From Isurus oxyrinchus (Eukaryota): a stretch of 64,000 nucleotides of DNA. Below the pieces are notes generated by a model. The model did not search any database. It worked only from the letters and a program-made list of their open reading frames with translations, and was not told where the DNA came from. Position 1 is the stretch's first letter; each line of letters starts with the position of its first letter. This document shows positions 16,601 to 37,600 of the stretch, one piece after another. A program made the position numbers and the translations under genes. The stretch spans positions 105,152,001-105,216,000 of the forward strand of contig JANJGN010000021.1 of the NCBI GenBank assembly GCA_026770705.1, written 5' to 3'.

Positions 16601-19600
16601 GATTCGCAGGAATACCATATCTCAAAGTGATTTGTTCCCTTTGAGATTTGTATTTTTTTTTAAAATTCATTCATGGGGTGGGGGCAGCGCTGATGTGGCC
16701 AGCATTTATTGCCTATCTCTAATTATCCTTGAGAAGATGGTAGTGAGCTACCTTCTTGAATTGCTACAGTTCATGTGCTGCAGGTATATCCGCAGAGCTG
16801 TTAGGGAGGTGGTTCCTGGATTTTGACCCAGTAACAGTGAAAGAACAGGGATATATCTCCAAGTCAGGATGGTGATTGCCTTGGAGGGGAAAGTCCAGGT
16901 GGTGCTTTTCTCATACGCCTACTGGCCTTGTTCTTCTAGATGGTTGCAGTCGTGGGTTTGGAAGGATCGGCCTAAGGAGACTTGGCGATTTCATGTAGTG
17001 CATCTTGTTGCCAATGGCGGTGGATGCAGTGAGTGTTTGCGGATGGGGTGCCAATCAATTGGGCTGCTTCATCCTGGATGATGTCAATTTCTTGGGTGTT
17101 ATTGGAGTGGCACTCATCCAGGCAAGTGAAGATTATCCTATTATGCTCCAAATTTGCGCCGTGTATATGGTGGACAGGCTTTGGGGAGTCAGGAGGTGAG
17201 TTACTCGCCGCAGGATTCCTAGCCTTTGACCTAGACTTGTAGCCACAGTATTGAAATGGCTAGCCCAGATCAGTTTCCGGCCAATGGTAGCCCCAGCATT
17301 TTGATAATGGGGCTTTCAGCGATGGTAAAGCCATTGAATGTCAAAATACGATGGTTAGATTCATTCTTGTTGGAGATGGTCATTGCCTGACACTTGTGTG
17401 GCATAAATGTTACTTACCACTTGTCAGCCCAAGTCTGGATATTGTCCAGGTCTTACTGCATTTGGACGTGGATTGCTTTAGTATCTGAGGAGTCACGAAT
17501 GGTGCTGAATATTGTGCAATCATCAGCGAACACCCACACTTCTGACCTGATGGTGGAAGGAAGGTCTTTGATGAAGCAGCTGAAGATGGCTGGGCCAAGG
17601 GCACTAACCTGAGGAACTCCTGCAGTGATGTTCTGGAACTGAAATGATTGACCTCCAACAAACACAAACAGCTCCCTTTGTACCAGATATAATTCCAAAC
17701 AGAAGAGACTTTCCCCCTGATTCCTATTGACTCCATTTTTGATGGGGCTCCTTGATGCCACACCCGGTCCAATGCTGCCTTTATGTCAAGGCCAGTCACT
17801 CTCATCTCACCTCGGGAGTTCAGCTCTTTTGTCCATGTTGAACTAAGGCTTGCATTGAGGTCAGGCGCTGAGTGGCCCTGGCAGAACGCAAACTGAGTGT
17901 CAGTGAGCAGGTTAATGCTAGCAAGTGATAGCACTGTTGATAACCCCTTCTATCACTTTACTGATAATCGAGAGTGGGCTGAAGGATGGGTTGGCTTTGT
18001 CCTGCTTTTTGAATGAAGGATATACCTGGACAATTTTCCACGTTGCCAGGTAAATGTTGCAGCTCTGTGGGACAGCAAGTTCTAAATCACAAGTCTTCAG
18101 TACTATTGCCGGAACATTGTCAGGTCCCATATGCATTGTATTATCCAGTGCCTTGAGCCATTTCTTGATATCATGTGGAATGAATCAAATTGGTTAAGGC
18201 TGGCATCTGTGATTCTGGGGACCTCCAGAGGAGGCTGAGTTGGATCAACCATTTTGCACTTCTAGCTGAAGGTTGGAGCAAATACTTCAGCCTTATTTTT
18301 TGCCCTGAAGTACTGGGCTCCCCCATCATTGAGGATGGGGATATTTGTGGAGTCTCCTCCTCCAGTGAGTTGTTTAATTGTCCACTGCCATTCAAGACTG
18401 GGTGTGGCAGGACTGCAGAGTCTAGATCTGATTCGGTGGTTGTGGGATCGCTGAGCTCTGTCTATTGCTTGCTCATTGCACTGTTTGGCACGCAAGTTGT
18501 CTTGTGTTGTCACTTCACCAGGTTGACTCCTAATTTTTAGGTGTGCCTTGTGCTGCTCCTAGCATACTCTCCTGCACTCTTCATAGCGAATCTGTCCTGA
18601 TGAGTGCAACTTGAAATGCTCAACAGCACATCTCTTCCTTCTGCAATGTTCTAGGTTTGTACTGCCAAGAAACTACTTCAAACAGTGCTAAACATAGTGC
18701 AGGAAAATATATATCCTGCAAAATGGAAAGAAAGCACTAAAAGCTTCTGGGACTCCTTGGATGGATAAAGGATCCAGTAAAGGAACATAAAGGATTAGGA
18801 AGAAGTTATACTTAATCTCAAAGACAGCAGAGGAACGCACGATAAGTGAAAGTACAAAGATATTAGCAGAAATGTCAAAAAAGGAAACAATTAGGAAGTC
18901 AAAGAGGCACGATGACCATTGATTATCAAAGAGCATAAATAACAAAATATTTTGAGAGGCAAATAAATGAAAAGTAGAGGTTGTGATTGGGAAAGTACTG
19001 TCGTAGGATAGACATGATATTAAAACAGAGAGATGGCATAAATATTAAATAAAAAATTGTCTTCAGTATTTGGCAGGAAGAATGAAGACTAAAACATGAC
19101 ATTGGATGATGAGGTCAATAGTGTGATACATGTGATAAAAACAAAATACTGCGGATGCTGGAAATCTAGAATAAAAACAAAATACCTGGAAAAACTCAAC
19201 AGGTCTGACAGCATCTGCAGAGAGGGATACAGTTAACATTTCGAGTCGGAGTGACTCTTCATCAGAACTAAGGAAAAATAGAAAAGAGATGAAGCATAAG
19301 CTGCTCTAAGGGGGCATAGGACAGGTAGATCTGGATAGAGGGTCAGTGATAGGTGGAGATTGCCAAAAGATGCCATAGACAAAAAGATAAAGAGGTGTTG
19401 ATGGTGGTTTTATTAGCTAAGAAATATGCTAATGGGGACATTAAGGGTAAAAAGCAGGACGAGCAAGGGACAGATAGCCCTAGTGGGGGTGAAGTGGGGG
19501 GAAGGGATCGAAATAGGCTAAAAGGTAGGGATAAAACAATGGATGGAAATACATTTAAACATAATGGAAATAGGCGAGAAAATAAATATATATATACATT

Positions 19601-22600
19601 ATTGGAAAAAAGGGAATCAGAAAGGGGCCAGGGTTGGAGAAAAGAGTTCATGATCTAAAGTTGTTGAACTCAATATTCATTCCGGAAGGCTGTAAAGTGC
19701 CTAGTCAGAAGATGAGGGGCTGTTCCTCCAGCTTGCGTTGAGCTTCACTGGAACATTGCAGCAGGCCAAGGATGTACATCTGATCTGTCCACAAGCATGA
19801 CCCTGTAGCCTGCCATTTCAACACTCCACCCTGCTGTCATGCCAACATGTCCGTCCTTGGCCTACTGCAATGTTCCAGTGAAGCTTAACGCAAACTGGAG
19901 GAACAGCACCTCATCTTCCAACTAGGCACTTTACAGCCTTCTGGGCTGAATATTGAGTTCAACAACTTTAATTCATGAACTCTTTCCTCCATCCCCACCC
20001 CCTTTCTATCCCCCCTTTTCCAATAATTTATATATATTTTTCTTTTCCCACCTATTTCCATTATTGTTAAATGTATTTCCATCTATTGTTTTATCTCTAA
20101 CTTTTAGCCTATTTCTATCCCCCACCCCCCAGCCCACCCCCACTAGGGCTATCTGTACTTTGCTCATCCTGCTTTCTACCCTTAATGTCTCCATTAGCAC
20201 ATTTCTTAGCGAATATAACCACCATCAACATCACTTTGTCCTTTTGTCTATGACATCTTTTGGCAATCTCCCCCTATCACTGGCCCTCTATCCAGTTGTA
20301 CCTGTCCCACGCCCTCTTAAACCAGCTTATATTTCACCTCTTTTTTATTTTTCATTAGTTCTGATGAAGAGTCATTCGTACTTGAAGCTTTAACTGTATC
20401 CTCTCTGCAGATGCTGTCTGACTTGCTGAGTTTTTCCAGGTATTTTTCCTTTTGTACTATGATACGTCTGTTTGAAATAAAAAGAGGGTGTATTGCTTGA
20501 ACTAAACAAACGCGAAGAGGATGACGATCCGGGTCTGGAGTGATTGCAATAACTAATTTTAAAAGAATCTAGGGAGAAGATAGCAGAGGTATTAAATTAG
20601 GTGTCCCACCAGAGGATGTAATTCCTATATTTAAGAAGGGGGTCAGAACATGTCCAGGGAATTGTAGGCCAGTCATCTTAAAATCAGCAGTGGGAAGGTT
20701 CATGGATTCCTTACTAAAGGAGAGAACAGAGAGCATCTACAATATGCTGAACATAATAATATGTGGATTTCAAAAGGGAATATTTTGCCTTGCCAATTTT
20801 ATGGACTCTTCTGGTAGGTAAAAGAACGACTAAAGACTGGTAACTCAAGAGACTTAATTTATCTTGATTTTCAAAAGGCCTTTGATAAGATGCTTAGATT
20901 AATGAATAAGACCGGAAAATGCAGAATTAGAGGGCAGGTGGCAGAATGGATTGCTAGCTGGCTTCAAGACCGAAAACAGAGTATCAGTAAAGGGTAGTTA
21001 TTCAGAATGCCAGACTGTAGGAAATAACATTTCACAGGGATCAGTGCTTAGGTCGCTGTTGTAGACAGTTTACATTAATGATTTGGACTTTGGAATCAAA
21101 AACACAAATTCTAAATTTCCAGAAAACACTAATGCGGGAGATAGTTAATACTTAGGAGGGCATCAACAAATTACATGAAGTTATTAATAAAATTGTAGAA
21201 TGGGCAAATAATTGACAAATTAAGTTCCAAGCATTTAAATGTGAGATAGAACATTTTGGTAGGAAGGCTAGGGTGGACACTTATTACTTGAAAGGTGCAC
21301 ATATAGGTGGGGTAGAAGAACAGAAGGACCTCAGAGTACAAATACATCAATCACGTTAGCAAAGCAAGTCAAGCACTACCTTATATTTAAAGGGGAGAGA
21401 ATTGAAAAGTAAGGAATTCATGTTAAACCTGTACCAAACCTTGGTTAGACAACCTTAGAGTACGGCGTGCAGTTTTGTTCGACATGTTATAAAAAGAGTA
21501 TGCAAGCAATAGAGAGGGTGCATAGAAGCTTTACAAAGATTATACTGGAAATGCGTGTATATACATCTCAGGAAAGTATTGACAGGCTATTGTCTTCTCT
21601 CTTGGAAAAAACGTGACTGGGTAGCGAGTGGGGGTGCGTGGGGTGGGGGTGGGGGTTGGTAGTGGTGGTGACCTAATAGAAGTCTTTAAAAATCAAAAAA
21701 TTGTTGCAGGTAATACAGGGCGAATGTTTCCCCTAGTGGGGAAGTGCATAACTAGAAGCTATCAGCATACGATACTATAGGCAACAGATATTTTTATTTC
21801 TGTTGGACTGCTGTAAACAAACATTACATTTATTTTCTTGAACTGCGGCTTTAAAAATTGGACTGTGGCTTCAAAACTACCAGGGCTGTAGTTGAAAGAC
21901 ATGTCCCTGGAGCAGGGTATGGAATATACAATGTTGGACCTCCTGGAACAGAAGGTGCCAGGTTGAATGGCATGGTGCTAGAAGGGGGAACTGCCTAGCA
22001 ACAAGGTTTTAATTGGCTCTTGATCAGGTGATCAAGGTTTTGTTTGATAGCAATGAGCAGCTAAATCCAAGCCTGCAAAGAGAGCACGCCTAAATCCTCT
22101 CTCCCCTGTGTGTGTAAGATTCCAGTAAATCTACAAGGCTAGCTGGCTGGCTGTTTGTTCATATCTATGTAGCCTGCTCTCTCTGAAAGCACCCTGTCAA
22201 GAGGAAAAGGGGAAAATCATCAGTTGGGACATTGAAAAGCAAGTTTTCAATCAGTGAACAGCAGACCGAAAGGGCTGGGAAGTTATCTCATGTCATTAAT
22301 AATGAACTGCAAGCAATTCGGGAAGGTATCAATCAAAATCGACCCATCTAATCCCATACTCCAGATTGATGCCATTGAACTGTTTAACCTTACCCTTAAA
22401 ATCCATGTTTGTNNNNNNNNNNNNNNNNNNNNNNNNNNNNNNNNNNNNNNNNNNNNNNNNNNNNNNNNNNNNNNNNNNNNNNNNNNNNNNNNNNNNNNNN
22501 NNNNNNNNNNNNNNNNNNNNNNNNNNNNNNNNNNNNNNNNNNNNNNNNATGGCAGAGTTTAAATTATAGAGTTAAAAGTTAACAGTTCATATTTCTCTCT

Positions 22601-25600
22601 TTTGCCACTGGTTAAGAGCAATGTGTTAAATAAACCGTTATTTACTTGTTAAGTTTACAAATCTGCTGCTGGTATTCTGTTATCCGAAATTAAACAGTTA
22701 AGTAGAATTGCACAATTTGGACCAGAAGATGTAGGAGCCATTCGGCCCTTCGAGTGCTCCGCCATTCAATTACATCATGGTTGATCTGATGATCCTCAAC
22801 TCCACTTTCCTGCCTTTTCCACTTAACCCTGGATCCCCTGACTTGTAAAAATCTGTCTGTCTCAGCCTTGAATATACTTAAAGACCCACCCTCTACCGCC
22901 CTCTGCAGTAAAGAATTCCACAGATTGGCTACCCTCTGAGAGAAGAATTCCTCCTCATCTCTGTCTTAAATGCGTGCCCCCTTAATCTGAGATTATGCCC
23001 TCTGGTCCTAGACTCTCCCACAAGGGGAAACAACCTCTCAGCATCTCTCAGCATCTACCCTGTCAAGCCCTCTCAGAAACTTACATGTTTCAATAATGTC
23101 ACCTCTCATTCTTCTAAACTCCAATGAGTACAGGCCCAACCTACTCAAACTCCCCTCATAAGAAACTCTCTCCATCACCGGGATCAACTGAATTAACATT
23201 CTCTGGACTGCCAGTATATCTTCCCTTAGATAAGGGGACCAAAACAGTTTGCAATATTCTAGGTGCGGTCTAACTAGTGCCTTGCATGGTTTTAGCAAAA
23301 CTTCTCTATTTTTATACTCCATTCCCTTTGAAATAAATATCAACATTCCATTTCCCTTCCCAATTACCCGCTGAACTCGTATGCTAGCTTCTTGGAATTC
23401 ATGCACGAGGGACTCTAAATCCCTCTGTGCTGCAGCTTTCTTTAGCCCTTCTTCATTTAAATAATATTCAGCTCCTCTATTCTTCATGCCAAAGTGCATA
23501 ACCTCACACTTTCCCACATTTATTCCATCTGCCATGTTTTTGCCCACACACTTAACCTGCCTATCTTTCTGTAGAATCTTTGTGTCATCCTCACCACTGG
23601 CTTTCCAACCTATTTTTGTGCCATCTGCAAACTTGGGGATAGTACATTAATTTATCTCATCCAAGTTATCAATATATATAGTAAATAATTCTGGCCCCAG
23701 AGCTGATCCCTGTGGCACTCCAGATGCCATCTGGAAATGCCCCCCATTTCCCAACTCTCGCTCTTCTATTAGTTAGCAACATCATGGGCCCTTATCTTAT
23801 TAAGTAAGCTTAAGCGTGGTACCCTATCGAACGCCGTTTAGCAATCCAAATATGTTATATCTACTGGTTCCCCTTTATCTATCCTGCTTGTTACCTCCTC
23901 AAAGAATGATATTAAATTTGTCAGGTATGATTTCCACTTCATGAAGTCATGCTAACTCTGCTTGATTAGATTATGCTTTTCCTAAAGCTCTGTTATTACA
24001 CCCTTTATAATAGACTCCAACATTTTCCTAATGACAGATGTTAAGCTAACTGGCCTATAGTTACCTATTTTTTTGTCTCCCTCCCTTTTTAAATAAGGGT
24101 GTTACATTGGCAGTTTTCCAATCCCCTGGGACTTTTCCAGAATCAAAGAACTCTTAGAAGATTACTACCAGTGCATCCACTATCTCAGCAGCTATTTCCT
24201 TTAATATTCTAAGATGCACCTCATTAAGCCCAGGTGACTTATCTTCCCTTTGCCCCATTACTTTCCTGAGTACTTTTTTCTCTAGTAAAACTTATTGTAT
24301 TTATTTCTTCCCCACCTTTTGCTCCACGATTATTTAATATGTTTGGTATGTTACTAGTGTCTTCTACCGTGAAGACTGATGCAAAGTATTTATTCAACTC
24401 CTCTGCCATTTCCTGGCTCCCAATTATTATTGCCCCAGTCTCATTTTCTAAGGGCCCTGTACTGACTTTGGTTTCTCTCTTCCTTTTTATATATTTAAAC
24501 AAACCCTTATGGCCGATTTTTATATTACTTGCTAGTTTATCCTCAAAGTTTATTTTCTCTCTATTTTTTTTGGCATTTTCTGTTGGATTTTTTAAAACTT
24601 TCCCAATCCTCTGGCTTACCATTAACCTTTGCCACATTGTATGTTTTTTTTCTTTCACATTGATACTATCCTGACCTTCTTTGGTTAACAATGTTTGAGT
24701 TTTCCCTTCCTACAATCCTCCTTCCTCACTAAGATATATCTTTGTTGTGAGTCATGAACTATTTTCTTAAATGTCTGCTATTGCTCATCAACCATCTTTT
24801 TTTCTAAACTCCTTTCCCAGTCCACTCCAGCCAACTCTGCCCTCATTCCATTGTAATTACCCTTATTTAAGTTTAGCACAGATGTTTCCAATCTAAGTTC
24901 CTCACTTTCAAACTGAATGCTAAATTCCACCATGTTATGGTCACTTTTTCCTAGGGTATCTTTTACTCTGAGATCATTTATTTAACCTGCCTCATTACAC
25001 GTTACCAGATCCAAAATAGCCTGATCCCTGTTTGGATCCACAACATCTTTTTCTAGGTAACTGTCCTGAATACAATCTATGAATTTTTGCTTGTGGCTAG
25101 CTCGGCCAATTTCATTTTCCCAATCTGCATGGAGATTAAAGTCACCCATGATTAATGTGCTACCTTTTTTACATGCCCTCATTATTTCCTGATTTATTCT
25201 CTGTCTGGCAGCATAACCACTGTTAGGGGGCATTTAGACTATTCCCACCAGTGTCTTCTTCCCGTTTTGTTTCTCACCTCCACCCTTTTGGATTCCACAT
25301 CTTCTGATCCAAGATCATTTCTTGCTATCGTACTTATTCCATCTCGTACTAACAAAGCTACCCCACCACCCTTTCCTTCCTGCCTGTCTTTTGAAATGTC
25401 ACATACCCCTGAATATATAGTTCCCATCTTTGATCTCCTTGCAAGCATGTCTCCAATGGTTATGAGATCATACCCATTAATTCTTATTTGTGCCGTTAAT
25501 TCATCTATTTTGTTCCTAATGCTACGTGCATTTAGGTAAAGAACCCTTAATTGTGCCTTTTCCCCCCCTTTGATCCTTTCTGCTATTGTGTTTTATGTTT

Positions 25601-28600
25601 GTACACTCTGTCCCTTCCTGTCACACCGTGGATATCATTACCTAAGTAACTGCCCTGCAATGCCGCCAAACCCTTTTGCTTTGTGAGCTGACTTATCCCC
25701 TCTCAGGAACCCTCACACTCTATATTTAGTTTAAAGCTCTCTCTACAACACTAGTTATTCAATTCACAAGGACGCTGGTCCCAGCATGGTTCAAGTGAAG
25801 CCTATCCCAACGGAACAACTCCCTTCTGCCCTAGTACTCTTGCCAGTGCCCCATGAATTGAAGCCCATTCCTGCCACACCAATCTTTGAGCCATGCATTT
25901 AACTCCTTGATTTATTTACCCTATGGCGGTTTTCCTGTGGCTCAGGTATTAACTCCGAGGTTACTACCTTGCAGTTTCAGCTTTTTTATTTAGCTCTTAA
26001 CTGTTCAAATTATTTCAGCAGAACCCCCTTTCTAGTCCTATCAATGTCGTTGGTACCAACGTGGACGACGACAACTGGATCCCTCCCCTCCCATTCCAAG
26101 TTCCTCTCTAGCTCTGAGGAGACGTCCTTAACCCTGGCAACGGGCAGGCAACACAGCCTTTGGGAATCAGGCTCACGGCTGCAGAGAACAATTTCTATCC
26201 CCCTAATTATACTGTCCCCTACCACTATTATGCTCCTACTTCCTCCCCACCTCTTGAATGGCTCCCCAGACCATATTGCCCTAGCCAGTTCATTCATCCT
26301 ACCTACAGCCCCTGCTTTCATCCACACAGCTTGCAAGAACCTCGTAACAGTTGGACAATTGCAGGGGCCAAGGCTCCTTGAAAGCTACTCCCGGGGCCCC
26401 CATACCTGCCTCACCTGCAGTCACACCCTCCTGTCCCTGACCACAGACCAAATTTGAATTATCTAACCTATGGGGTGTGACCACCTCCAGGAGCAAAGTG
26501 TTCAGGTAACTTTCCCATTCCTGAATGTTGCACAATGTCTGCAGCTCAGACTCTAGCTCCTTAACTCGGATCCGAAGTTCCTCGAGCTGCAAGACTTTCT
26601 ACAGATGTGTTTGCTCTGTATCACCTAGGTGTCCAGTAGCTCCCATATGCCTCAGCAGCAGTGCATCATCAGTCCTGCCATCGCTCCCTTATCTCATGTA
26701 ATATATTAAGTAATTACTCTAGTATCCCTGCTCTTTACACTTCATTGAAATTAATTTTTTACACCAGTATCAAACTTTTCACATTTGTCCCGGCATGGGG
26801 AGCAGTGGGGCTTGATATTACAGTACACTATCTCCAGTAAGCCGTGACAAAGTTTGGGGGCTCGAGTCCTGGCTATTTTGGAACAAATGACAATAACGAT
26901 TTAGGTGTAGATTCAATAAGTACTAGAAGCTAAAAGGAAACACCAGGTTAGTATCATCAAAAATAATCGAATTGGCAAGTAAATTAAGAGTAGGGTTGAC
27001 TGCCAAACCTATGTAGATAGAGATAATCAAAGAGAAAGCACAGCATTTAAAACTGGAAGGGCTACCTGAGAGACTGAATTCTCCAAGGGCTAATGCATTG
27101 GAATGGCTCAAATTCATTTACAAATACAAACATTGGAACTAGAAGCCACAGAAAAAGAAAGAGAAAGGGCATTCCAAAGGGAACAAGCAGAAAGGCGGGA
27201 GAGAGAAAGAAAACAGGAAAGGGAATTACAAATGGCAAGGTTAGAAATGGAGGGAAGAGAAAAAGAGAGAGAAAGCGAATATCAGCTTACAATGCTGATA
27301 GCAAATCAAGACACAACAGTAGGTGAGGCAGGACCTATCTCCATATCAGAATCCAGAGGGGAGATGTTTAAAATTGCACAGGCTCTTTCAAAATTTGAGG
27401 AAAGGGATGCTGAAACATTCTCTATTTCATTTGATAAGCTAGCTAAACAGATGAACTGGTCAATGGAACACTGAACATTGCCCACAGAGAGAAAACTGAC
27501 AGGAAGCACAGGAAATTTATGCTTCACTGTCAGAGGAGGTTTCTAGGGATTATGATGTGGTGAAAATGGCCATTTGAGTGCAAATGAGTTTGTCCTTGAA
27601 GCATACAGACTAAAGCTTCGAAATTTAAGGAAATGGCCTGGGCAAACTTACATTGAATTTGAAAGACTTAAATTAAACAGTTTTGACAGATAGATACGAG
27701 CACTAGGAGTTGAAACTACCTCTGACGTTCTCAGCGAAATCATTCTCTTAGAATAATTTAAAACCCATGTTGAAGATCAAAGGGTTGCAACTTCAAGATA
27801 GGTAACAGTAATGGCTGACGATTATGAGCTGATCCATAAAAGCAAACCTTTTTTCCATTACGCCCATAGGCTTGAGAAGGATAGAAAATGGGAGAGTGAA
27901 AGGAAGGCGAATAGCCAGGGTAAAGAATGGATTGCTGGGAGTACATTGTGATCTCCTACCCAGATCAAGAAGCAAGGTACTGAGGGTGGAGGTGAAACTC
28001 GAAGGCCGAAGTGTTATCACTGTAATATAATGGGGCACATACATACAGAATGCTGGAAGTTGCTTGGGAAGCGTTTGGGAATAATTGGAGTTAGTAAGAG
28101 TGAGTCCGAAAAGAGAACTCAAAAACAAAATGCCACGGACCAAATTGCAGCTTTAACTCCAAATAAGGGTCTAGAGGTAAACACTGCTTTGAATGCAGGT
28201 GAAGTGAATAAGGTAGATGAGATACATAAAGGGTTTTGTCTAAAGGGAAAATAACCCCCTCTTCATAAAATGATGCAGCTGAACCCATAACTATATTAAG
28301 GCACACAGGAGCTACTCAAACTCTTTTGCTGGAGAAGGACCTAATTTTCCCTGCAGAGAGTTCAATGAAAGCTAAAGTATTGGTAAACCGGATAAGTGGA
28401 GAGTATATTCTGGTTCCATTGTACAAAGTGCAATTGGAATGTCATTTGTTGTCTGGATCAGTGGTTGTAGGAGTGGGTAAGAAATTACCCACGGAAGGAG
28501 TGGATCTACTCCTGGGGAATGATTTGGCAGGATTGAAGGTTATAGCTTCGTCCACAATCACAGAAAGTCCGAAAGAGGCTAAAGAGACAGAGCAATTACA

Positions 28601-31600
28601 AGAACGAATTCCTGCTATATTTCTATCGTGTTTGGTGACCAGCACAATGGCTAAACAAAGTCCATCACCAGAGGTCAAAGTAATACCTCAAGCAGTCATT
28701 GGAATAGCCGAGGCTTTCTTCAATGTTCAATGGGGAGCTGGTGGAAATGGCACATGCAGGCTCTATTGGAATTAATGAAACAGTGACCTAACTGGAATCT
28801 AATCACAAGCAACAAGAATTGAGAGAGCTAAAACAGAACCTTAAAACCTCCAATAATGAAAAGGCAGAGTTCTCCATGAAAATAACAGAATTTACAGAGG
28901 AGGTTGCTTTACGAGCAAGTAAAATACAACAACTTCAAGGGGAATTAAAGGAAGCACCTGTTCGGGTTGATACTTTGGTAGAAAGTGAAACAGCCCTTAA
29001 AGATAAATTGCAGACCTTTGAAGGGACTAACAGTCAAACTTTGCTAGAAAGAACAGAATTCAAAAGCCGTGTAAGTGAACTGAAAACAAAACAGAAGAGC
29101 AGAGCCAGGGTAAGATTCGTGAGCTTTGCAGTTTGCTGAAGGAAACTGAGGAATATGAGAAACAGCTTCGAGAAAAGTCTGTTCATCTTCAGAATGCAAA
29201 CGAAATCAAAAGCTAAATACAGCAATTCATTCATTATTTTAATGAAGCAAATGGAAAAATAAAGCTACAAACTAATGACTTAAATATAAGGTGCACTGAA
29301 CAAATGAACATTCTTCATGAGCGTATTATAGGCTACCAAACTCAAATTGAAAGATAGAAAAGGCAGTTGTGAAAAGGGTCAATAGGGTTGGTGAACTAGA
29401 AGTTAAAGTCAAAGAGATAGTAAATCAAAATGCGTTATTGAATGATTCAATACAGAATATGACAAAACAACTGAAAAATGAACAAGAAAACTTTAAGGCA
29501 TTGCAACCTGAACTACAAAATGTTACAGAACACACCCCAGCAAGAAAGGAAACATTACATTCAAGTATTAGATAAGATGGAGATGTGCATCAAACAACAT
29601 AGAATAAACGTGTCAGAAAGTGCATGTGCGCACGAATCCAGCACAGAACAGCTAAATGGAAGAGAATTACTGATCCGGAACTTGGAGGAACAATTAAGTG
29701 ATCTGGAATTGCCGCTTGAGCACAGTGCTTAGCTTTCAGATAAGGAAGAAGCTATTTCATTGCTTAACAAACAATACCAAGTGGAACAACAAAAGCTGCT
29801 GGAGAAAATAGGTCTGTTATCTGCAAGTATTGAAATTGTTCCTAAAGAGAAAGTTTCAGCTCATTAACAAGAAGGCCAGTATAAAAAGCAGTTGACAGAA
29901 TGGAACAAAAAGATGGAATCAAAACAACAACAAAATGAAAGAGCTTGAGTCACAATTTGAGACTTCTCAAAGAAAATGAAGAGAAGGATGACCATTTATC
30001 AAAATTAGAACAGGGACAGGAACAAAAGCACAAAGGAAACTGGGTTAAGTCCAATAGTAATGATGCAGGACAGGGGAAGAGTAAAGATTTAGAACAAAAG
30101 AGCAAAATTCAAAAGCTAGGAAAGGGATAGAATTAGAAGCAAATAAGGCCAAAGGAACAGAGATAAAGTACAAAAAAAAGGAACGATAACAAAGAAACAC
30201 TAATCTACACTGACCATAATCCGCTGGCGTTCATTGAAAAGTTTAAAACTCGAAATGCGAGACTTTAGATGGAGTCTATTGTTTCAACCATTCAATGTAA
30301 AGATTGTTTATATTGCCAGTATAGATAATGTGATTATGGATGCATTGTCCCGGGTGTTAAAAACTGAAATAAGTTAAAGGGAATAAAATATGCTTAAGAC
30401 AGTGTATTGGGGAGAAAGATTGAATGGATATAAGTCTCTTGCTTTGTTGTCCATGTGTCGCATACCTGGTGATGAAACACATTTTAGAAATAGTGTTCTA
30501 AGTGTGGAGGCATGTAAGCAGCATTTATTTTTATTTCTGTTGGACTGTTGTAAAGAGCATTTATTTTCTTGGGCTGTGGTTTTATAAATGGGACTGTGGC
30601 TTTTAAACTACCAGGGCTGCAGTTGAAAGATATGTTCCTAGAGCAGGATGTGGAATACACAATGTTGCTATCTCCTGGGATAGAAGGTGCCAGAGTGGAC
30701 AACATGGTGATGGAAAGGGGGGCGGCCTGGCAAACAGTGTTTTAATTGGTTCCTGATCAGGTGGTCAAGGTTTTTTGTGATAACGGTGAGCAGAGAGATC
30801 CTAGCCTGCAAAGAGAACACACCAAAAACCTCTCTGTCCTGTGAGTGTAAGATTCCAGAAAATCTACAAGACCAGCTAGCTGGCTTTTTCTTCACATCTC
30901 TAATCTGCTCTCTCTGAAAAGACCCCCTGTCAAAGGGAAAAGGGGAAAATCACCAGTAGAGACATTGAAAAGCGAGTTTTCAATCAGCAAGCTACAAACT
31001 GAAAGTGCTTGAAGACCATCCCGTATCATTAACAACGAACTGAAAGGAATTCGGGAAGGCATCAATCAAAATCAGCCCATCTAATCCCACACTTAGGATT
31101 GGTGCTTTTGAACTGTTTTGCCTCACCCTTAAAACTCATGTTTTGTATGTCTTACGTGTGTGTTTGTGTATAGGGGTTAGGAAGGGGCAGAGTTTAAGTT
31201 ATAGTGTTAAAAGTTATCAGTTCATATTTCTTTCTCGTGCCACTGGTTAAGGACAATGTCTTTAATAAAATTATTTACTCGTTAAGTTTACAAATCTGGT
31301 GTTCGTATTCTGTTAACCTAAATTAAACAGTTAGGGAGAATTGGACAATTTAGTGGTCTAGTCAATATTTTCATTTTTGTCTCAGCTGGGGGAGCAGTGG
31401 GGCTTGATATTGCAGCACGCTATCCCCAGTGAGTCGTGACAATAGTTACCAAGACATCCGATAGGCAATTTAGAAGAAACCTCTTTACCCAAATAGTGGT
31501 AAGAATGTGCGACTCTCTACCACAAAGAGTGTTTGAAGTATATAATATAAATGCATTTAACGGTAAAATAGACAAGCATGTGAAGGGAGATGAAATAGAT

Positions 31601-34600
31601 GGTTAGCATGCTATACTTAGATGAAAAAGTTGGGAGGAGGTTTGAGTATAGCATAAACACCGGCATGAACTGGTTAGGCCGAGTTCCCAGTGTCTTTACC
31701 GTATATCCTATGCAATCCACTGTAATTGAAATATGCCTATGACATAAGCCATGACATTCACTGTCGCTGGGTCAACTTCCTGGAACTCCTTTCCTAACAG
31801 CGCTGTGGGTGTACCTATATCGCTACAGCGGTTCTAGAAGGCAGCTCACCACCACCTTCTTAAGGGCAATTAGGGATGAGCAATAAATGCTGACCCAGTC
31901 AGCGGAGCCCACGTCCCGTGAATGAATAAAAATTATGTATAGCTTCAAATTAGGCAATATCATTAAATGCCTTTCTAAAATTAATGCAAACACCTCATTA
32001 AGTGTATTTTGGTAAATAAGAATAATCGTGGTAATGTTAATATTATAGTGTCAATCATGCTGATTATTTTAGTGTCAGTGTAGGTATATTACAATGTAAG
32101 CCATACATCAGCCGTGTTATTCTTTACATATATAGTCATTCATACTTTGAGGAAAGACATAGGTTTGTAGTAATTCATTCCATATTGTGATGAAGTTGAA
32201 TTTTGGATAATTACCTGGAAGTCCACGGCAGAACAGAGTATAAATTATTTTAGTTAGTATGAGAGCCAGCAGCACAAGCGCCAGCACTGAGAATATAAGC
32301 AGATATATATTCCATTGTCTTGGCAGCGATGTTACTTCAGAATCAACGTGACCTGCAGAGAGAGAACAAAAACAGTTTTTCTTTCCATCTTCCTCTGCGT
32401 ATTTGATGATGGCTAATCTTGGTTTTTATGCTTCAGTTGAAAAACCGCAGGTGGGTAGCAACAGCTCGGTGCACAGCAGAGAACCAAAATGCTGAGCAGA
32501 TTAAGGCAGAAAAGACCTGTCACTCACTATCCACCTCCGCGTTTTTGATGATGGCTAATATTGGTTTTATGCTTCAGCTTGAAAACCGCAAGTGAGTAGC
32601 AACGCCTCGGTGCACAGCAGAGAACCAAAATGATGAACAGGTTAAGACAGAAAAAGCGTGTTAACATCTTCCTTTGTGTTTTTGTGATTATTATTGTTAG
32701 CAGTACGTTTTAATTAAAAACAAAACAACTTAGAGTGGGAGACAAGATCACTCCTGCAGCACGGAGATGGTGAGCAGATAAAGCCGCAAGTAAGGGACAT
32801 TTCGGTAAATACAAGCCTGCAGATTTCAGTGGGTGCCTTTGGGGGTGGGGGGGGTGGGTGGGGGTGGGAGGCGAATGGTGGTTTGTGGGAGTTCCCGACG
32901 TGTGCTTTGCCCTGTGCGTCTCTCTCTCTCTCGATTGCGTTGTCTATTTCTAGAAGGACGACGTTTGTCACACAAATGAATTATTTATTTTCCATTTGTT
33001 CAAGCCAGGAATTTTAGTGCGGGAGTAGCACATAGGAGGATGTCACGAGTTCTCACTGCGCATCCAACAGTAAACAGTAATTTCCCAAGTATAAGAATGG
33101 TTGAAATGTCTTCAGTTTCGTCACAACATCAAATGGCACCTATGCCATTGCTCCTATGCTGTTTTACGATAGAGGTAAAGGAAATATGATTCAACGCTTT
33201 GTTTAGCTATTCTACCCATGCAACACCTTGATATCAGGCGTGCACAATAGCGAGAGACCTAATGAACCCTCACAGAGCATGAATCCTCCCTTCTATTCTG
33301 GCGTGTCTGATTTAAATTCTTGGAATGTTGTGCCCGGAGTGACAGGTCCGGCCAACGGCAGTCACGTGACAACACCTAATGAAGAAGGGATCATAAACTC
33401 AAATTATTTTTTCTGTCACTTTTTTTATATAATGATTATTTAAGAAATGGACCTTGTGCAGCTATCGGTCATTCCACTGTACTGTTGTAGCAGTTGGGTA
33501 TTTCTGTCGAAAGTAATGTGCAACTTACGATAACTTCATTGCCGACGTCTATCCGTATGGTTTCAGCAAGGTTACATGAACTGATTGCAAGCTACAGTGG
33601 CTAAAACCGTTTTCAAAATTGACTCTTTCCAGTTGATTACTTCATCGTGTGGAGGATATGTGGTATGTAATTACTGATGGTTGAAGTTCAATGAGGTGCT
33701 TGGAATTGTATCCTGATTTTTGTGAGGTTTTTGTTAACTTGTTCACTAATATGGGCATTGCCGACAAGTCTAGCAATTATTGTACATCCCTGATTGCTCT
33801 TGAAAAGTTAGCAGGGAACCTCCTTCTTGAGAGCTGAGTAGTTTGCTAGGCCATGTGAAGGAAACTTAAGAGTCAAGCACATTCCTGTAGGTTTGCATAT
33901 AACTGCCAGCAGTAATATATCGGCCCAAGCCAGGTCAGGTTGGCGTGCTTCCTTTCCTAAAGTGTATTAGTAAACCAGACAGATTGTTGTGCCAATCTGG
34001 CAGTTGGAATACTCACTAAAACTTATACAAGATTTCCTTTTCCGCATCAATTTACTGCTGTGGTGGGATTTGAATTCATTGCCTCACTATCATTAGGCGA
34101 GCTGACTGGGACACAAGGCTGCAGAGCAGCATCGAATTGAAAAGTTCTGATTGTTTCGGGGAAGAGAAACTAGCCGAAGCTAAAATTCTCAACTTCAAAG
34201 CTATTTGAAACGTGTGTTGAGACTTGAGAGAAGTAGAAAATGTGATTTTAGAATCTTCTCACTTTTCCATCAATTTTATCCTGAAGTCAGATGAGGGAAA
34301 TGTACAACAAAGGCGGAACATTTTAATTACTCAGAATTTACAACAAAGTAATGGGCCGTTCGGTCCAGTTGGACTATGCTGCTGTTTATGTCCAACACCA
34401 GCCTTATCTCCCGGAATCTCATCCGCATTACTGTCTATTGCATTCTCTCTTGCAGCAATCTGTTACAAATGGTACTCATGGCGTTCCCCATCATTAGCTC
34501 CATGGGGTTTAATGCTAGTGATGGGAAGGTACTTTTCTGTGTGTACCATATCAGGAAAGGGTTTGAATGGACTGGCTCATTGGCCTTGGCATTGCATGAC

Positions 34601-37600
34601 GAATGACGGTGGTGGCAAGCCATGTCCCATGTCACCAGTGAAGTTAGGGTCTGAGGTTTCTGAGGAGATTTCCTGGCTTGGCATACAGTTCTTCTTAGGG
34701 TAAGTATGGACATGCTCGGTGTGCTGCCTTGTCTGAAGGCGAATGTGTTCAGATGGGTGTTGTGGACGTCAGAGGGTCTGGATTGCAATTGTGGAGTGCA
34801 GCAGCTAAATGTTCTTCTGTGGTCACTACGGCACTGAAGGATACAGCACCTTCAATCCACACAGCATTCTGATTTGGATATCTATCTCTGCTCCTTCTTC
34901 GTTGCTGGGCAAAAATCCTGCAACTTCCTCCTTACCAGCACCGAGAACGTACCTACACCACATGGACAGCAGTGGCTCAAGAAGGCGGTTCACTACCACC
35001 TTCTCATGGTCAATTAAGGAGGGTAACAAATGATGATCCTGCCAACAGTTCTCGCACCCCAGGGAATAATAGATAAATACTGGATACCTCTAAATTTTGG
35101 GATGTGACTATGGTTATTATTAATAAATCACATTTAGTGCACATATCACATTCTAATGCAATTGCAGCTGCAACAGGTCGTTAACAATTATTTCTTCTCA
35201 ATGGTACGAAGGACCAATATAAATTGGAGCAAGGCCAATTTCAGTGGAGTGAGAATGAACCTATTCCAGGTACTGTATATTGGAATCAAAGATTAGCAGA
35301 TAAAACTGCAATGGAACAATATGCTACAATTAAAGAGGAGATGGCTCTGGCATTATTGATTTGTAATCGCAAAGGGGGGAAAGCTAAGCAAACAAAGTCA
35401 GAGCTCCGTAGATGATGAAAGGTAGAGAATAAAATGTGGTAGCGAAGGGCCTATGACTGGGTTGTAAATTTTGAGTAATTAAAATGTTCCACCTTTGTTG
35501 TACATTTCCCTCATCTGAAAACTGTCACAAATGACGCATGCAGTTATTTGTCTTCAGGATGAAATCGATGGAAAAGTCAGATGATTCTGAAATCACATTT
35601 TCTACTTCTCTCAAGACTCAACACACGTTTCAAATAGCTTTGAAGTTGAGAACTTTAGCTTTGACTAGTTTCTTTTCCCCGAAATAATCAGGGCTTTTCA
35701 ATTCGATGCTGCTCCGCAGCCTCGTGACCCGGTCAGCTGGCCTAATGATAGTGAGGCAATGAATTCAAATCCCACCACCGCAGTTGGGGAATTTGCATTC
35801 AATTAATTAAATGCATGCGGAAAAAGAAAGCTTGCATCAGTTTTAGCGAATATTTCAACTACCAGATTGGCACAACAATCTATCTGGTTTACTAATACAC
35901 TTTAGAAAAAGAAGTGTGCCAGCCTGACTATATATGTCTATTGTCAATGCAATTAAGAACCAGGCTGAGAATAGGAAATACAGAGCAGAAGTTTAAATCA
36001 AATAAAGGGGGCAAAGAGAGACTATGGGGAGAGGCTAGCAGCTGACATAAAGGGAATAGAAAAGTTTACAAGCATATAAATAGAAAACGGGAGTAGGGCA
36101 AGGAGCTGGCCCGGATCAGGGCCAAAAGGTTGAGCTACACATGGAGGTTGAGGGCGTGGCTGAGAAACAATTGAATACTTAGCACCTCTCAATACAAGGA
36201 AGACATTGCTGCCAAAGTCCCAGTGAAAGAGGGATAGTAGAGATGCAGGATATAGTAAAAATTGATAGAGAGGAAAGATTCGAAAGGCTGATTGTGCTTA
36301 AAGTTGATAAGCCATGAAGAGTGGATGAGATGCATCCCGGGTTGCTGTGAGAAGGAAGGGAGGGAGTGGCAGTGACACTGGCCATAATCTTCCAAACGTC
36401 CTTCAATACATGGGTGGTGCCAGAGGACTGGAGAATTGCAAATGTTACATTATTGTTCAAAAACACAGAAAATACAGGCCAGTCAGTTTAACCTCTGTGA
36501 TTTAAAAAAAAGCTTATGGGGATGATGATTGGGGGCAAAATCAGCAGTCACTTGGACAGGTGTGGGTTTATTAGGGAAAACCAGCATGGATTTATTCAAA
36601 TCGAGTCATGTTTAACTATCTTAAGTTTCTCCATTGAGTTAACTGCAAGGGCTGATCAGGGTAAAGTGGTGGATGCAATGCACGTGCACTTCCATTTCCA
36701 AACAGTGTTTGATAATGTGCAACATATTAGACTTGGCAGCAAAGTTCAAGGTTGTGGGGTCAAAGGAAAGGGTGGCCGAGTAACAGGAAAGGGGAAGGAG
36801 CGAGGAATGGTTGTTTCTTTGTTGGACTGGAGAAAGGTCAGGGGTTAGAACTAGGACCTCTGTATTCCTTGACACATGCGCAAAAACAAAATTTCAGATG
36901 ACAAAACTTTGTGAACTGTGAGGAGGATTAATAAATTTCCAAATGGCATAGACAGGCTGGGGAAGGGATAGACACATGGCAGAATGACATGTAATGCAGA
37001 GAAACGTGAAGCGCTATATTTTGTTAGGGAGAACAAGGAGAGACAATCTAAATAAAGGCCACAATTCTAAAGAGGGTGCAGGAACACAGAGTGACAGGAA
37101 CTATAGAGGACATAAATGCAGTATTGTTGAATGTAACAGGGCATGCTGAGAAAATCGTTCACAAGGTATTCAGGATCCTGAGATTTATAAGTGGAGACAT
37201 GCAATACAGAAGCAAGGAAGCTATGATGAACATTTATAAACCTCTTCTTCGGCCTCAACTGGGGTATTGTGCCCAATTCTGTGCATGACGCTTTAGGAAG
37301 GATGTCAGGGCTATAGAGTGGATGCGAAAATGATTAATGGAAGTGTATCTGGGTATTAGTGACCTCAGTCATTTTGACAGATTGGAGAACCTAGGCTTGT
37401 TTCTCCTTCGGGAGGAAAGGTCGAGAAGAGACTAATCGAAGTTTTCAAAATCATGAGGGCCCTGGACAGAATGGATAGGGAGAAACCGTTCCCTTGTGCG
37501 GTAGGGCCGAGAACCAGAGGAAACAAAATGACCAACAGTGACATGAGGGAAAAGAAAAGCATTTTTTTGCGCAGCGGGTGGTTAGGATCTGGAAGAATGT

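What the first reader, a model, noticed from the sequence alone, without database searches (positions are those of the whole stretch)
28719..30010. LTR retrotransposon has captured a host GOLGA4 (golgin-245) coding segment in place of integrase and RT
Seen: between the protease and the RNase H tail there are no IN or RT motifs. Instead there is about 1.3 kb of sense-oriented, heptad-rich coding remnant whose translation matches recalled GOLGA4 blocks in order. Established: retroviral/LTR transduction replaces pol with cellular sequence, as in acutely transforming retroviruses and plant LTR gene capture. Inference: this is a non-autonomous element carrying host cargo that could be mobilised in trans, which is seldom reported for vertebrate Gypsy elements.
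Basis: partly seen in the sequence, partly recalled or inferred. Interest (0 to 1): 0.8.

Follow-up and report, generated by a model that had tools for sequence, protein, structure and literature searches.

The report
Shark retrotransposon carrying two host-gene pieces
This is one old, broken copy of a shark jumping gene whose copying enzymes are replaced by pieces of two host genes (GOLGA4 and PPIG), likely picked up one after the other from messenger RNA and then spread to about ten places in the genome; it is an unusually complete record of a known way of duplicating host sequence.

Summary
Confirmed and extended. 28722-30018 is 87% identical to the giant coding exon of this genome's own GOLGA4 gene. 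It sits in a two-LTR Gypsy element, between protease and RNase H tail. Cargo-free siblings carry integrase, RT and RNase H there, in Gmr1 order.

At least 34 sibling loci carry PPIG alone, so GOLGA4 likely entered a PPIG-bearing derivative.

Eleven loci carry the GOLGA4 piece. They share breakpoints and two deletions, and seven show different 4-bp target duplications. Junctions have 6-12 nt microhomology and no poly(A). All copies are decayed (LTR divergence 0.09-0.20). The capture predates the split from basking shark, and a second organism shares this insertion.

Intron loss cannot be tested, because each cargo lies within one exon. Seven of eight shared junctions keep the reading frame (P about 0.03 to 0.18), so selection for an open frame is suggested, not shown.

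The mechanism is published (Tan 2016, including three zebrafish Gypsy cases). This scan noted similar captures in other shark and ray genomes. New member of a known kind.

The parts
21772..21775 (+). left target-site duplication (ATAC; right copy ATAG, 3 of 4 alike)
21776..22718 (+). 5' LTR, first part (start decayed; holds a masked stretch)
   Evidence: 80-87% to the 3' LTR
22719..26768 (-). LINE inserted later into the 5' LTR (endonuclease by Pfam; the CR1 label is recalled, not tested)
   Evidence: gap in the LTR pair; PF14529 E 9e-7
26769..26849 (+). 5' LTR, last part, ending GTGACA
26855..26870 (+). primer-binding-site-like motif shared by the family (likeness to tRNA-Pro is recalled, not tested)
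27094..28254 (+). broken gag with zinc knuckle
   Evidence: zf-CCHC E 0.009 here and over cut-off in a sibling; 76-81% to siblings
28269..28721 (+). protease and the start of the linker to integrase; a deletion private to this copy removes the original pol/GOLGA4 junction
   Evidence: no Pfam hit for the protease frame
28722..30018 (+). captured piece of the GOLGA4 giant exon (about residues 1070-1570 of the 2316-aa basking shark protein; about 1000-1570 in fuller copies), with two family-wide deletions of 129 and 45 nt and several private frameshifts and stops
30019..30179 (+). captured piece of the last, RS-rich exon of PPIG (cyclophilin G)
   Evidence: 87% to G000:C14:76.608 Mb; upstream cyclophilin exons; best solved-structure hit PPIG
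30183..30360 (+). C-terminal tail of RNase H
   Evidence: aligns to the RNase H region of full-length siblings
30500..30512 (+). purine-rich tract before the 3' LTR
30513..31441 (+). 3' LTR, TG...CA
31442..31445 (+). right target-site duplication (ATAG)

Best explanation
This is a decayed, non-autonomous copy of a Gmr1-type Gypsy LTR retrotransposon whose integrase, RT and most of RNase H are replaced by exon pieces of two host genes, likely captured in two successive template switches onto co-packaged mRNA. Shown: the anatomy, both host sources, the short shared sequences at the junctions, the PPIG-only subfamily, the 11 GOLGA4-bearing loci with different target duplications, and the decay. 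Inferred order: a full-length element (PR-IN-RT-RH) first took in about 750 nt of the last PPIG exon. A descendant then switched from the integrase linker onto GOLGA4 RNA at a 9-nt match and back onto the PPIG part at an imperfect 10-of-12 match. Two microhomology deletions trimmed the cargo. The product was copied with RT and integrase from full-length relatives and recombined with them. All this likely happened in one old burst before the split from basking shark. The cargo is most likely a passenger with no function of its own; whether selection kept the long frame open is about 40:60.
For: Full-length siblings have one pol frame with integrase before RT. 0 of 39 top gag-pro siblings carry GOLGA4 and 4 of 39 carry PPIG. 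All 34 PPIG-only loci examined lie in this family's context. The 5' GOLGA4 breakpoint is the same in 9 of 11 loci and the 3' GOLGA4/PPIG junction in 9 of 11; the exceptions have deletions or another structure. Shared junction sequence: 9 nt pol/GOLGA4, 10 of 12 GOLGA4/PPIG, 6 nt pol/PPIG, 9 nt at the 129-nt deletion. Of 7 loci with both ends, 4 have exact and 3 have 3-of-4 target duplications, all different (one was read one base off the aligner's placement). Both cargos are exonic and in sense. Mosaic copies (C8 with the other PPIG/RNase H junction; C17 at 27.7 Mb returning to integrase) point to repeated RNA-level recombination. Trees are star-like with end branches of about 0.07. At 22 sites host and basking shark share a derived residue where the cargo keeps the outgroup residue.
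Against: No intron loss can be shown, because each cargo lies within one exon; the RNA route rests on orientation, exon content and junction form. The order of events is deduced from the structures, not from a supported tree: the GOLGA4 copies are not one clade in the gag-pro tree (4 changes; C10a falls among PPIG copies), which needs recombination to explain. Copy counts are lower bounds from capped searches. RT was not placed on a tree with reference Gmr1 elements. The frame and substitution data lean somewhat against a purely neutral passenger.
Confidence: 0.87

Rival explanations
1. Same history, but selection kept one long gag-protease-cargo frame open while the element was multiplying, because translation of its own RNA helped packaging or RNA stability, or because the fused coiled-coil/RS product did something for the element.
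For: 7 of 8 junctions shared by two or more copies keep the running frame, against 3.9 expected from the frame bias of microhomology (P 0.025). Both further junctions of one mosaic copy are in frame too. A lost and a gained base in two A-runs of the PPIG piece cancel out in the commonest lengths. None of 508 cargo codon columns has a stop as its commonest codon and no small frameshift is family-wide, while 52 of 63 private indels shift the frame. Gag-protease changes peculiar to the GOLGA4 group are 5 replacement to 11 silent, against 324 to 115 for private changes (P 6e-4).
Against: One shared PPIG/RNase H junction is out of frame in 12 of 14 copies. Scoring the GOLGA4/PPIG junction against PPIG's native frame gives 6 of 8, P 0.18. 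The control, deletions in cargo-free siblings, is 7 of 12 in frame and does not differ significantly (P 0.19; two more deletions gave no reading and one was dropped). Zero disruptions on the stem has P 0.02-0.12 only. The dN/dS of the cargo on the stem can be anything from 0.15 to 1.2 without outgroup DNA. The gag-protease signal may be imported from full-length helpers by recombination. Several junction lengths are noisy (5 of 9 in frame at pol/GOLGA4).
Confidence: 0.4
2. The exon pieces entered at the DNA level (break repair or gene conversion using the genomic exon), and only the later spread went through RNA.
For: No splice junction lies in either cargo, so a DNA template is not excluded. 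Microhomology is also typical of DNA repair (established knowledge).
Against: Two of two cargos are coding exon in sense orientation, in genes made mostly of intron. Pol is replaced rather than interrupted. A separate family in this genome carries spliced GOLGA4 exons, so GOLGA4 RNA was available to such elements.
Confidence: 0.07
3. The capture happened in another shark lineage and the element entered this one by horizontal transfer, which would also explain a cargo without family-wide stops.
For: The cargo branches outside host plus basking shark and has 12 to 21 residues of its own.
Against: Capture on the common stem explains the same pattern with fewer steps. The host exon's branch (0.055) is no longer than the copies' branches (0.06-0.09). 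Cargo-free, PPIG-only and double-cargo forms coexist here at similar age.
Confidence: 0.05
4. A later, independent GOLGA4 retrocopy landed in this one element, or the other loci are segmental duplicates.
For: Two C10 loci are only 3.5% apart in the cargo and 98.6% alike over the 3' half, so one of the 11 is probably a duplicate or conversion product.
Against: There is no poly(A) or target duplication at the cargo ends. The other copies are 11-16% apart, lie on 8 chromosomes-scale contigs and have different target duplications.
Confidence: 0.01

Closest known systems
LTR-mediated retrocopies of animals (Tan et al. 2016, PMC5131818; passages, section 6 and rows of supplementary tables S8 and S13 read)
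   Same: A partial host sequence replaces part of the element's frames; short shared sequence at the switch points; no poly(A); chimeras of several genes; further rounds of copying. Three zebrafish cases are Gypsy-flanked.
   Different: Those are young, mostly single loci with intron loss. Here an old lineage keeps each step as its own subfamily (cargo-free, PPIG at 34 or more loci, PPIG plus GOLGA4 at 11) along with recombinants, and intron loss is untestable.
Maize Bs1 (known to me through the passages in PMC5131818 and from recall)
   Same: A non-autonomous LTR element with pieces of several unlinked host genes.
   Different: A plant element; three genes; its primary papers were not read.
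Crocodilian ERVs carrying KIT-ligand or nectin3 (PMC4299795; passages read)
   Same: An old vertebrate multi-copy lineage (nine and six copies) carrying host coding sequence and shared between species.
   Different: Those are retroviruses with whole or near-whole frames still open and under purifying selection. Here it is a Gypsy element with internal fragments that are broken in every copy.
Gmr1 clade of Ty3/Gypsy (PMC8220671 and PMC4131045; passages read)
   Same: Integrase upstream of RT in a Gypsy-type element; found in fish and frogs.
   Different: No placement on an RT tree was made, and the passages read mention no host cargo.

Membership tests
Gmr1-type Ty3/Gypsy LTR retrotransposon | Two LTRs with TG...CA ends and a short target duplication | tested here: met
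   4-bp duplications; the window's 5' LTR start is decayed and its duplication matches 3 of 4
Gmr1-type Ty3/Gypsy LTR retrotransposon | Integrase upstream of RT and RNase H in one pol frame | tested here: met
   in full-length siblings: Integrase_H2C2, rve, RVT_1, RT_RNaseH in that order; one frame, with one doubtful stop column, in 13 aligned siblings. Absent from the window copy itself.
Gmr1-type Ty3/Gypsy LTR retrotransposon | RT groups with reference Gmr1 elements | not tested
   no reference sequences were at hand
Gmr1-type Ty3/Gypsy LTR retrotransposon | Primer-binding site and polypurine tract | tested here: inconclusive
   conserved motifs at the expected places; not matched to a tRNA of this genome
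LTR-mediated retrocopy (Tan 2016) | Host sequence replaces part of the element's frames between both LTRs | tested here: met
LTR-mediated retrocopy (Tan 2016) | Microsimilarity at the switch points, no poly(A), no target duplication of its own | tested here: met
   9 nt, 10 of 12 nt and 6 nt; no chance simulation of these lengths was run
LTR-mediated retrocopy (Tan 2016) | Loss of introns | not testable with these tools
   each cargo lies within one exon
LTR-mediated retrocopy (Tan 2016) | Further copying as a non-autonomous element | tested here: met
   11 loci, 7 with distinct target duplications
LINE-made processed pseudogene | Poly(A) tail, own target duplication, 3' end of the mRNA | tested here: not met
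   an internal exon piece without tail
Domesticated retrotransposon-host fusion gene | One copy with an intact frame kept across species | tested here: not met
   longest frame over the cargo is 240 codons in the 11 loci; private dN/dS 0.78

The most novel reading that the evidence does not exclude
Shark Gypsy elements that lose their enzymes go on multiplying only if they keep one long open frame, so they fill it with in-frame host coding sequence. Charged coiled-coil and RS-rich exons are captured one after another as translated stuffer, and were made as gag-protease-host fusion polyproteins in the ancient germline. This would be a general, selection-shaped route of exon shuffling in cartilaginous fishes.
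Probability: 0.35. Interest if true: 0.72.

Novelty: new member of a known kind. Interest (0 to 1): 0.5.

Why it matters
The mechanism is known, but published vertebrate Gypsy cases are few and mostly single loci. Here the steps survive side by side (full-length, one cargo, two cargos, recombinants), so the order of captures and the role of reading frame can be tested directly. It also gives dated presence/absence markers for mackerel-shark phylogeny, and warns annotators that 'GOLGA4-like' and 'PPIG-like' fragments in these genomes are transposon cargo. Nothing indicates a present function.

Tried and rejected
Pfam on the cargo frames gave only generic coiled-coil hits under their cut-offs; the identity came from the host locus instead.

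A GRIP family search found 3 loci, none on C5; the domain is split over exons there.

Two protein searches with the RS-rich second cargo and its host exon returned nothing, and the Atlas gave only leads of 0.8 or less. PPIG was identified from the upstream exons.

No RNA holder listed among public runs.

My first polarisation gave 24-25 cargo-specific replacements with a lenient rule. The stricter rule gives 12 clear and up to 9 doubtful, which weakens the test for an open frame; the weaker figures are used.

The 5'-junction search found no copy beyond the known ones (40 of 698 candidates scored).

Eleven siblings that stop matching the family showed no evident third cargo directly after the break, by eye on open frames only.

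The C8 junction test returned no anchors.

Literature: GOLGA4 + retrotransposon + shark gave 0 papers. The listings showed no title on host-gene capture by shark LTR elements; only titles and abstract starts were seen, and subscription journals and Repbase are not covered. Supplementary file 1 of PMC5131818 could not be searched.

Full report
**Setting.** The window is G000:C21:105152001-105216000 of a 4.98-Gb genome. Its GOLGA4 exon is 97% identical in protein to basking shark and 74-83% to other sharks, so the host is inferred to be a mackerel shark.

**The element.** An LTR pair is seen at 21776-26849 and 30513-31441. The 5' LTR is split by a 4-kb LINE on the minus strand. Between the LTRs lie a broken gag with a zinc knuckle, a protease frame, the segment in question, and an RNase H tail followed by a purine tract. 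The target duplication is ATAC/ATAG. The family is large: a gag-protease query had 1024 candidates, of which 40 were scored. In 39 fetched siblings the full form has integrase, then RT, then RNase H. Thirteen aligned siblings give one pol frame of about 3250 nt from the protease motif, with a single doubtful stop column. This is the domain order described for Gmr1 elements (passage in PMC8220671). No RT tree was made, so this is 'Gmr1-type by domain order'.

**First cargo, GOLGA4.** The DNA search with 28719-30010 gave 20 matches (15 of 15 candidates scored). They resolve into the window, ten other loci and one place on C5 with a 1421-codon open frame and no element flanks. That frame is GOLGA4. 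It covers residues 636-2070 of the named protein in one exon, and seven further exon matches follow in order downstream. The window matches it at 86.6% over 1305 bases; shuffled controls reach 29.6 bits against 267.

**Shared structure of the copies.** In 9 of 11 loci the cargo starts at the same host base, inside a 9-nt sequence shared by pol and GOLGA4. The window and one other copy have lost this junction. A 129-nt deletion is in all 9 copies that could be aligned cleanly across it. A 45-nt deletion is in 9 of 10, and reads 47 nt in the tenth. A junction query found no further copy (40 of 698 candidates scored).

**Second cargo, PPIG.** The 161 nt after GOLGA4 are absent from full-length siblings but present, as the end of a longer insert, in 4 of 39 siblings that lack GOLGA4. 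A search with that insert gave 105 candidates, 40 scored. All 34 distinct PPIG-only loci that I examined sit in this family's context. One match had an unbroken 659-codon frame on C14. Cyclophilin exons lie 27-33 kb upstream of it on the same strand, and one of them has human PPIG as best solved-structure hit (E 1e-20, NKTR 2e-12). The window piece is 87% identical to that exon. GOLGA4 joins the PPIG piece at an imperfect 10-of-12 match in 9 of 11 loci, and PPIG joins the integrase end at a 6-nt match. Since PPIG occurs without GOLGA4 but GOLGA4 occurs with PPIG wherever the 3' part survives (10 of 11; the eleventh is deleted there), the inferred order is PPIG first, GOLGA4 second.

**Recombinants.** Variants of the 5' and 3' PPIG junctions occur in mixed combinations. 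One GOLGA4 copy (C8) has the alternative 3' junction. Another (C17, 27.7 Mb) returns from a shortened GOLGA4 piece to integrase and a full PPIG piece. This fits repeated template switching between co-packaged RNAs (inference).

**Spread and age.** Seven of 11 loci have both ends in the 20 kb fetched. Four have exact and three have 3-of-4 four-base duplications, all different. Two C10 loci are near duplicates over part of their length, so about ten insertions are independent. LTR-LTR distance is 0.196 for the window, 0.088-0.154 for five other GOLGA4 copies and 0.077-0.132 for six siblings. Trees are stars with end branches near 0.07. The GOLGA4 copies cluster more than shuffled labels but are not one clade on gag-protease. 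In three runs of a second organism (coded B), contigs differ by 21 of 714 bases over the cargo. In two of the three, a listed contig crosses the 3' LTR end into the flank, so this insertion predates that split. At 22 of 508 codon columns host and basking shark share a residue where the cargo agrees with more distant sharks, so the capture predates that split too. No absolute date is given, as no calibrated rate was available.

**Function, evidence for an open frame.** Every copy is broken: private variants in the cargo have dN/dS 0.78, and 52 of 63 small indels shift the frame. Whether the frame mattered while the lineage was active is open. For: 7 of 8 shared junctions keep the running frame against 3.9 expected (P 0.025). 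No stop and no small frameshift is family-wide in the GOLGA4 piece. Group-specific gag-protease changes are mostly silent (5 to 11; P 6e-4).

**Function, evidence against.** One shared junction is out of frame. Another scoring gives 6 of 8 (P 0.18). Deletions in cargo-free siblings are 7 of 12 in frame. The no-disruption test gives P 0.02-0.12. The dN/dS of the cargo on the stem cannot be fixed without outgroup DNA. Gag-protease alleles can be imported from helpers. I therefore read the cargo as a passenger and give selection for an open frame about 40%. Both cargos are very A-rich (43% and 50% A), which favours chance matches with pol and may by itself explain why charged, coiled-coil or RS exons are taken.

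**Comparison.** Tan et al. 2016 describe the same anatomy, multi-gene chimeras and further copying in flies and vertebrates, with three Gypsy-flanked zebrafish retrocopies. Crocodilian retroviruses carry amplified host frames under purifying selection. I found no paper on this family or on such capture in sharks (open-access library only). This scan's unchecked notes report CLIP1, SUDS3, SH3KBP1 and KMT2D captures in other shark and ray genomes, one of them 'fused in reading frame'. I did not test those notes, and my frame analysis came before I read them. None was found for this genome or this sequence.

**Verdict.** Real, well supported, and richer than first described: a two-step capture with surviving intermediates. 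It is a new member of a known kind; interest 0.5.

Noticed in passing
L127-L137 (G000 C3:157.39 Mb, C5:56.5, C5:141.05, C5:146.45, C4:124.29, C313:0.57, C6:23.45, C15:122.48, C27:27.98, C5:193.05): A second, unrelated repeat family carries spliced 3' exons of GOLGA4 in permuted order. In 7 of 10 loci the first of these exons follows later ones; in two copies read at base level the GRIP exon's donor end is joined to that exon's acceptor start (a back-splice junction). The insert begins and ends at the same short word in that exon, as expected for one full turn of a circular RNA. Copies share about 3 kb upstream with a zinc knuckle and a weak RT match (RVT_1 E 0.003, under cut-off); LTRs and target duplications were not defined. 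This resembles the circRFWD2 pseudogenes of mouse (PMC4897178, passages read).. It deserves its own study.
   Followed up: partly
L044-L126, host source L096:4778-5531: The PPIG-only subfamily (105 candidates, 34 loci examined) is larger than the GOLGA4 one and has at least two 5' and four 3' junction variants; two copies continue from PPIG into RT.
   Followed up: yes
L031-L034 (C10:74.65 and 78.48 Mb): Two copies 3.8 Mb apart in opposite orientation are 98.6% alike over the 3' half including the LTR, but do not share flanks: likely gene conversion.
   Followed up: partly
L047, L051, L053, L055, L058, L059, L061, L063, L068, L077, L079, L080, L081: Many cargo-free siblings have large internal pol deletions; 7 of 12 measured are multiples of three.
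   Followed up: partly
window 19173-20401 and 33934-35928: Long inverted repeats (arms of 280 nt at 86% and 240 nt at 91%) that may be non-autonomous DNA transposons or fold-back elements.
   Followed up: no
L096:4090-5319: The last PPIG exon has a second open frame of 409 codons overlapping its RS repeats, probably a by-product of the repeat composition.
   Followed up: no
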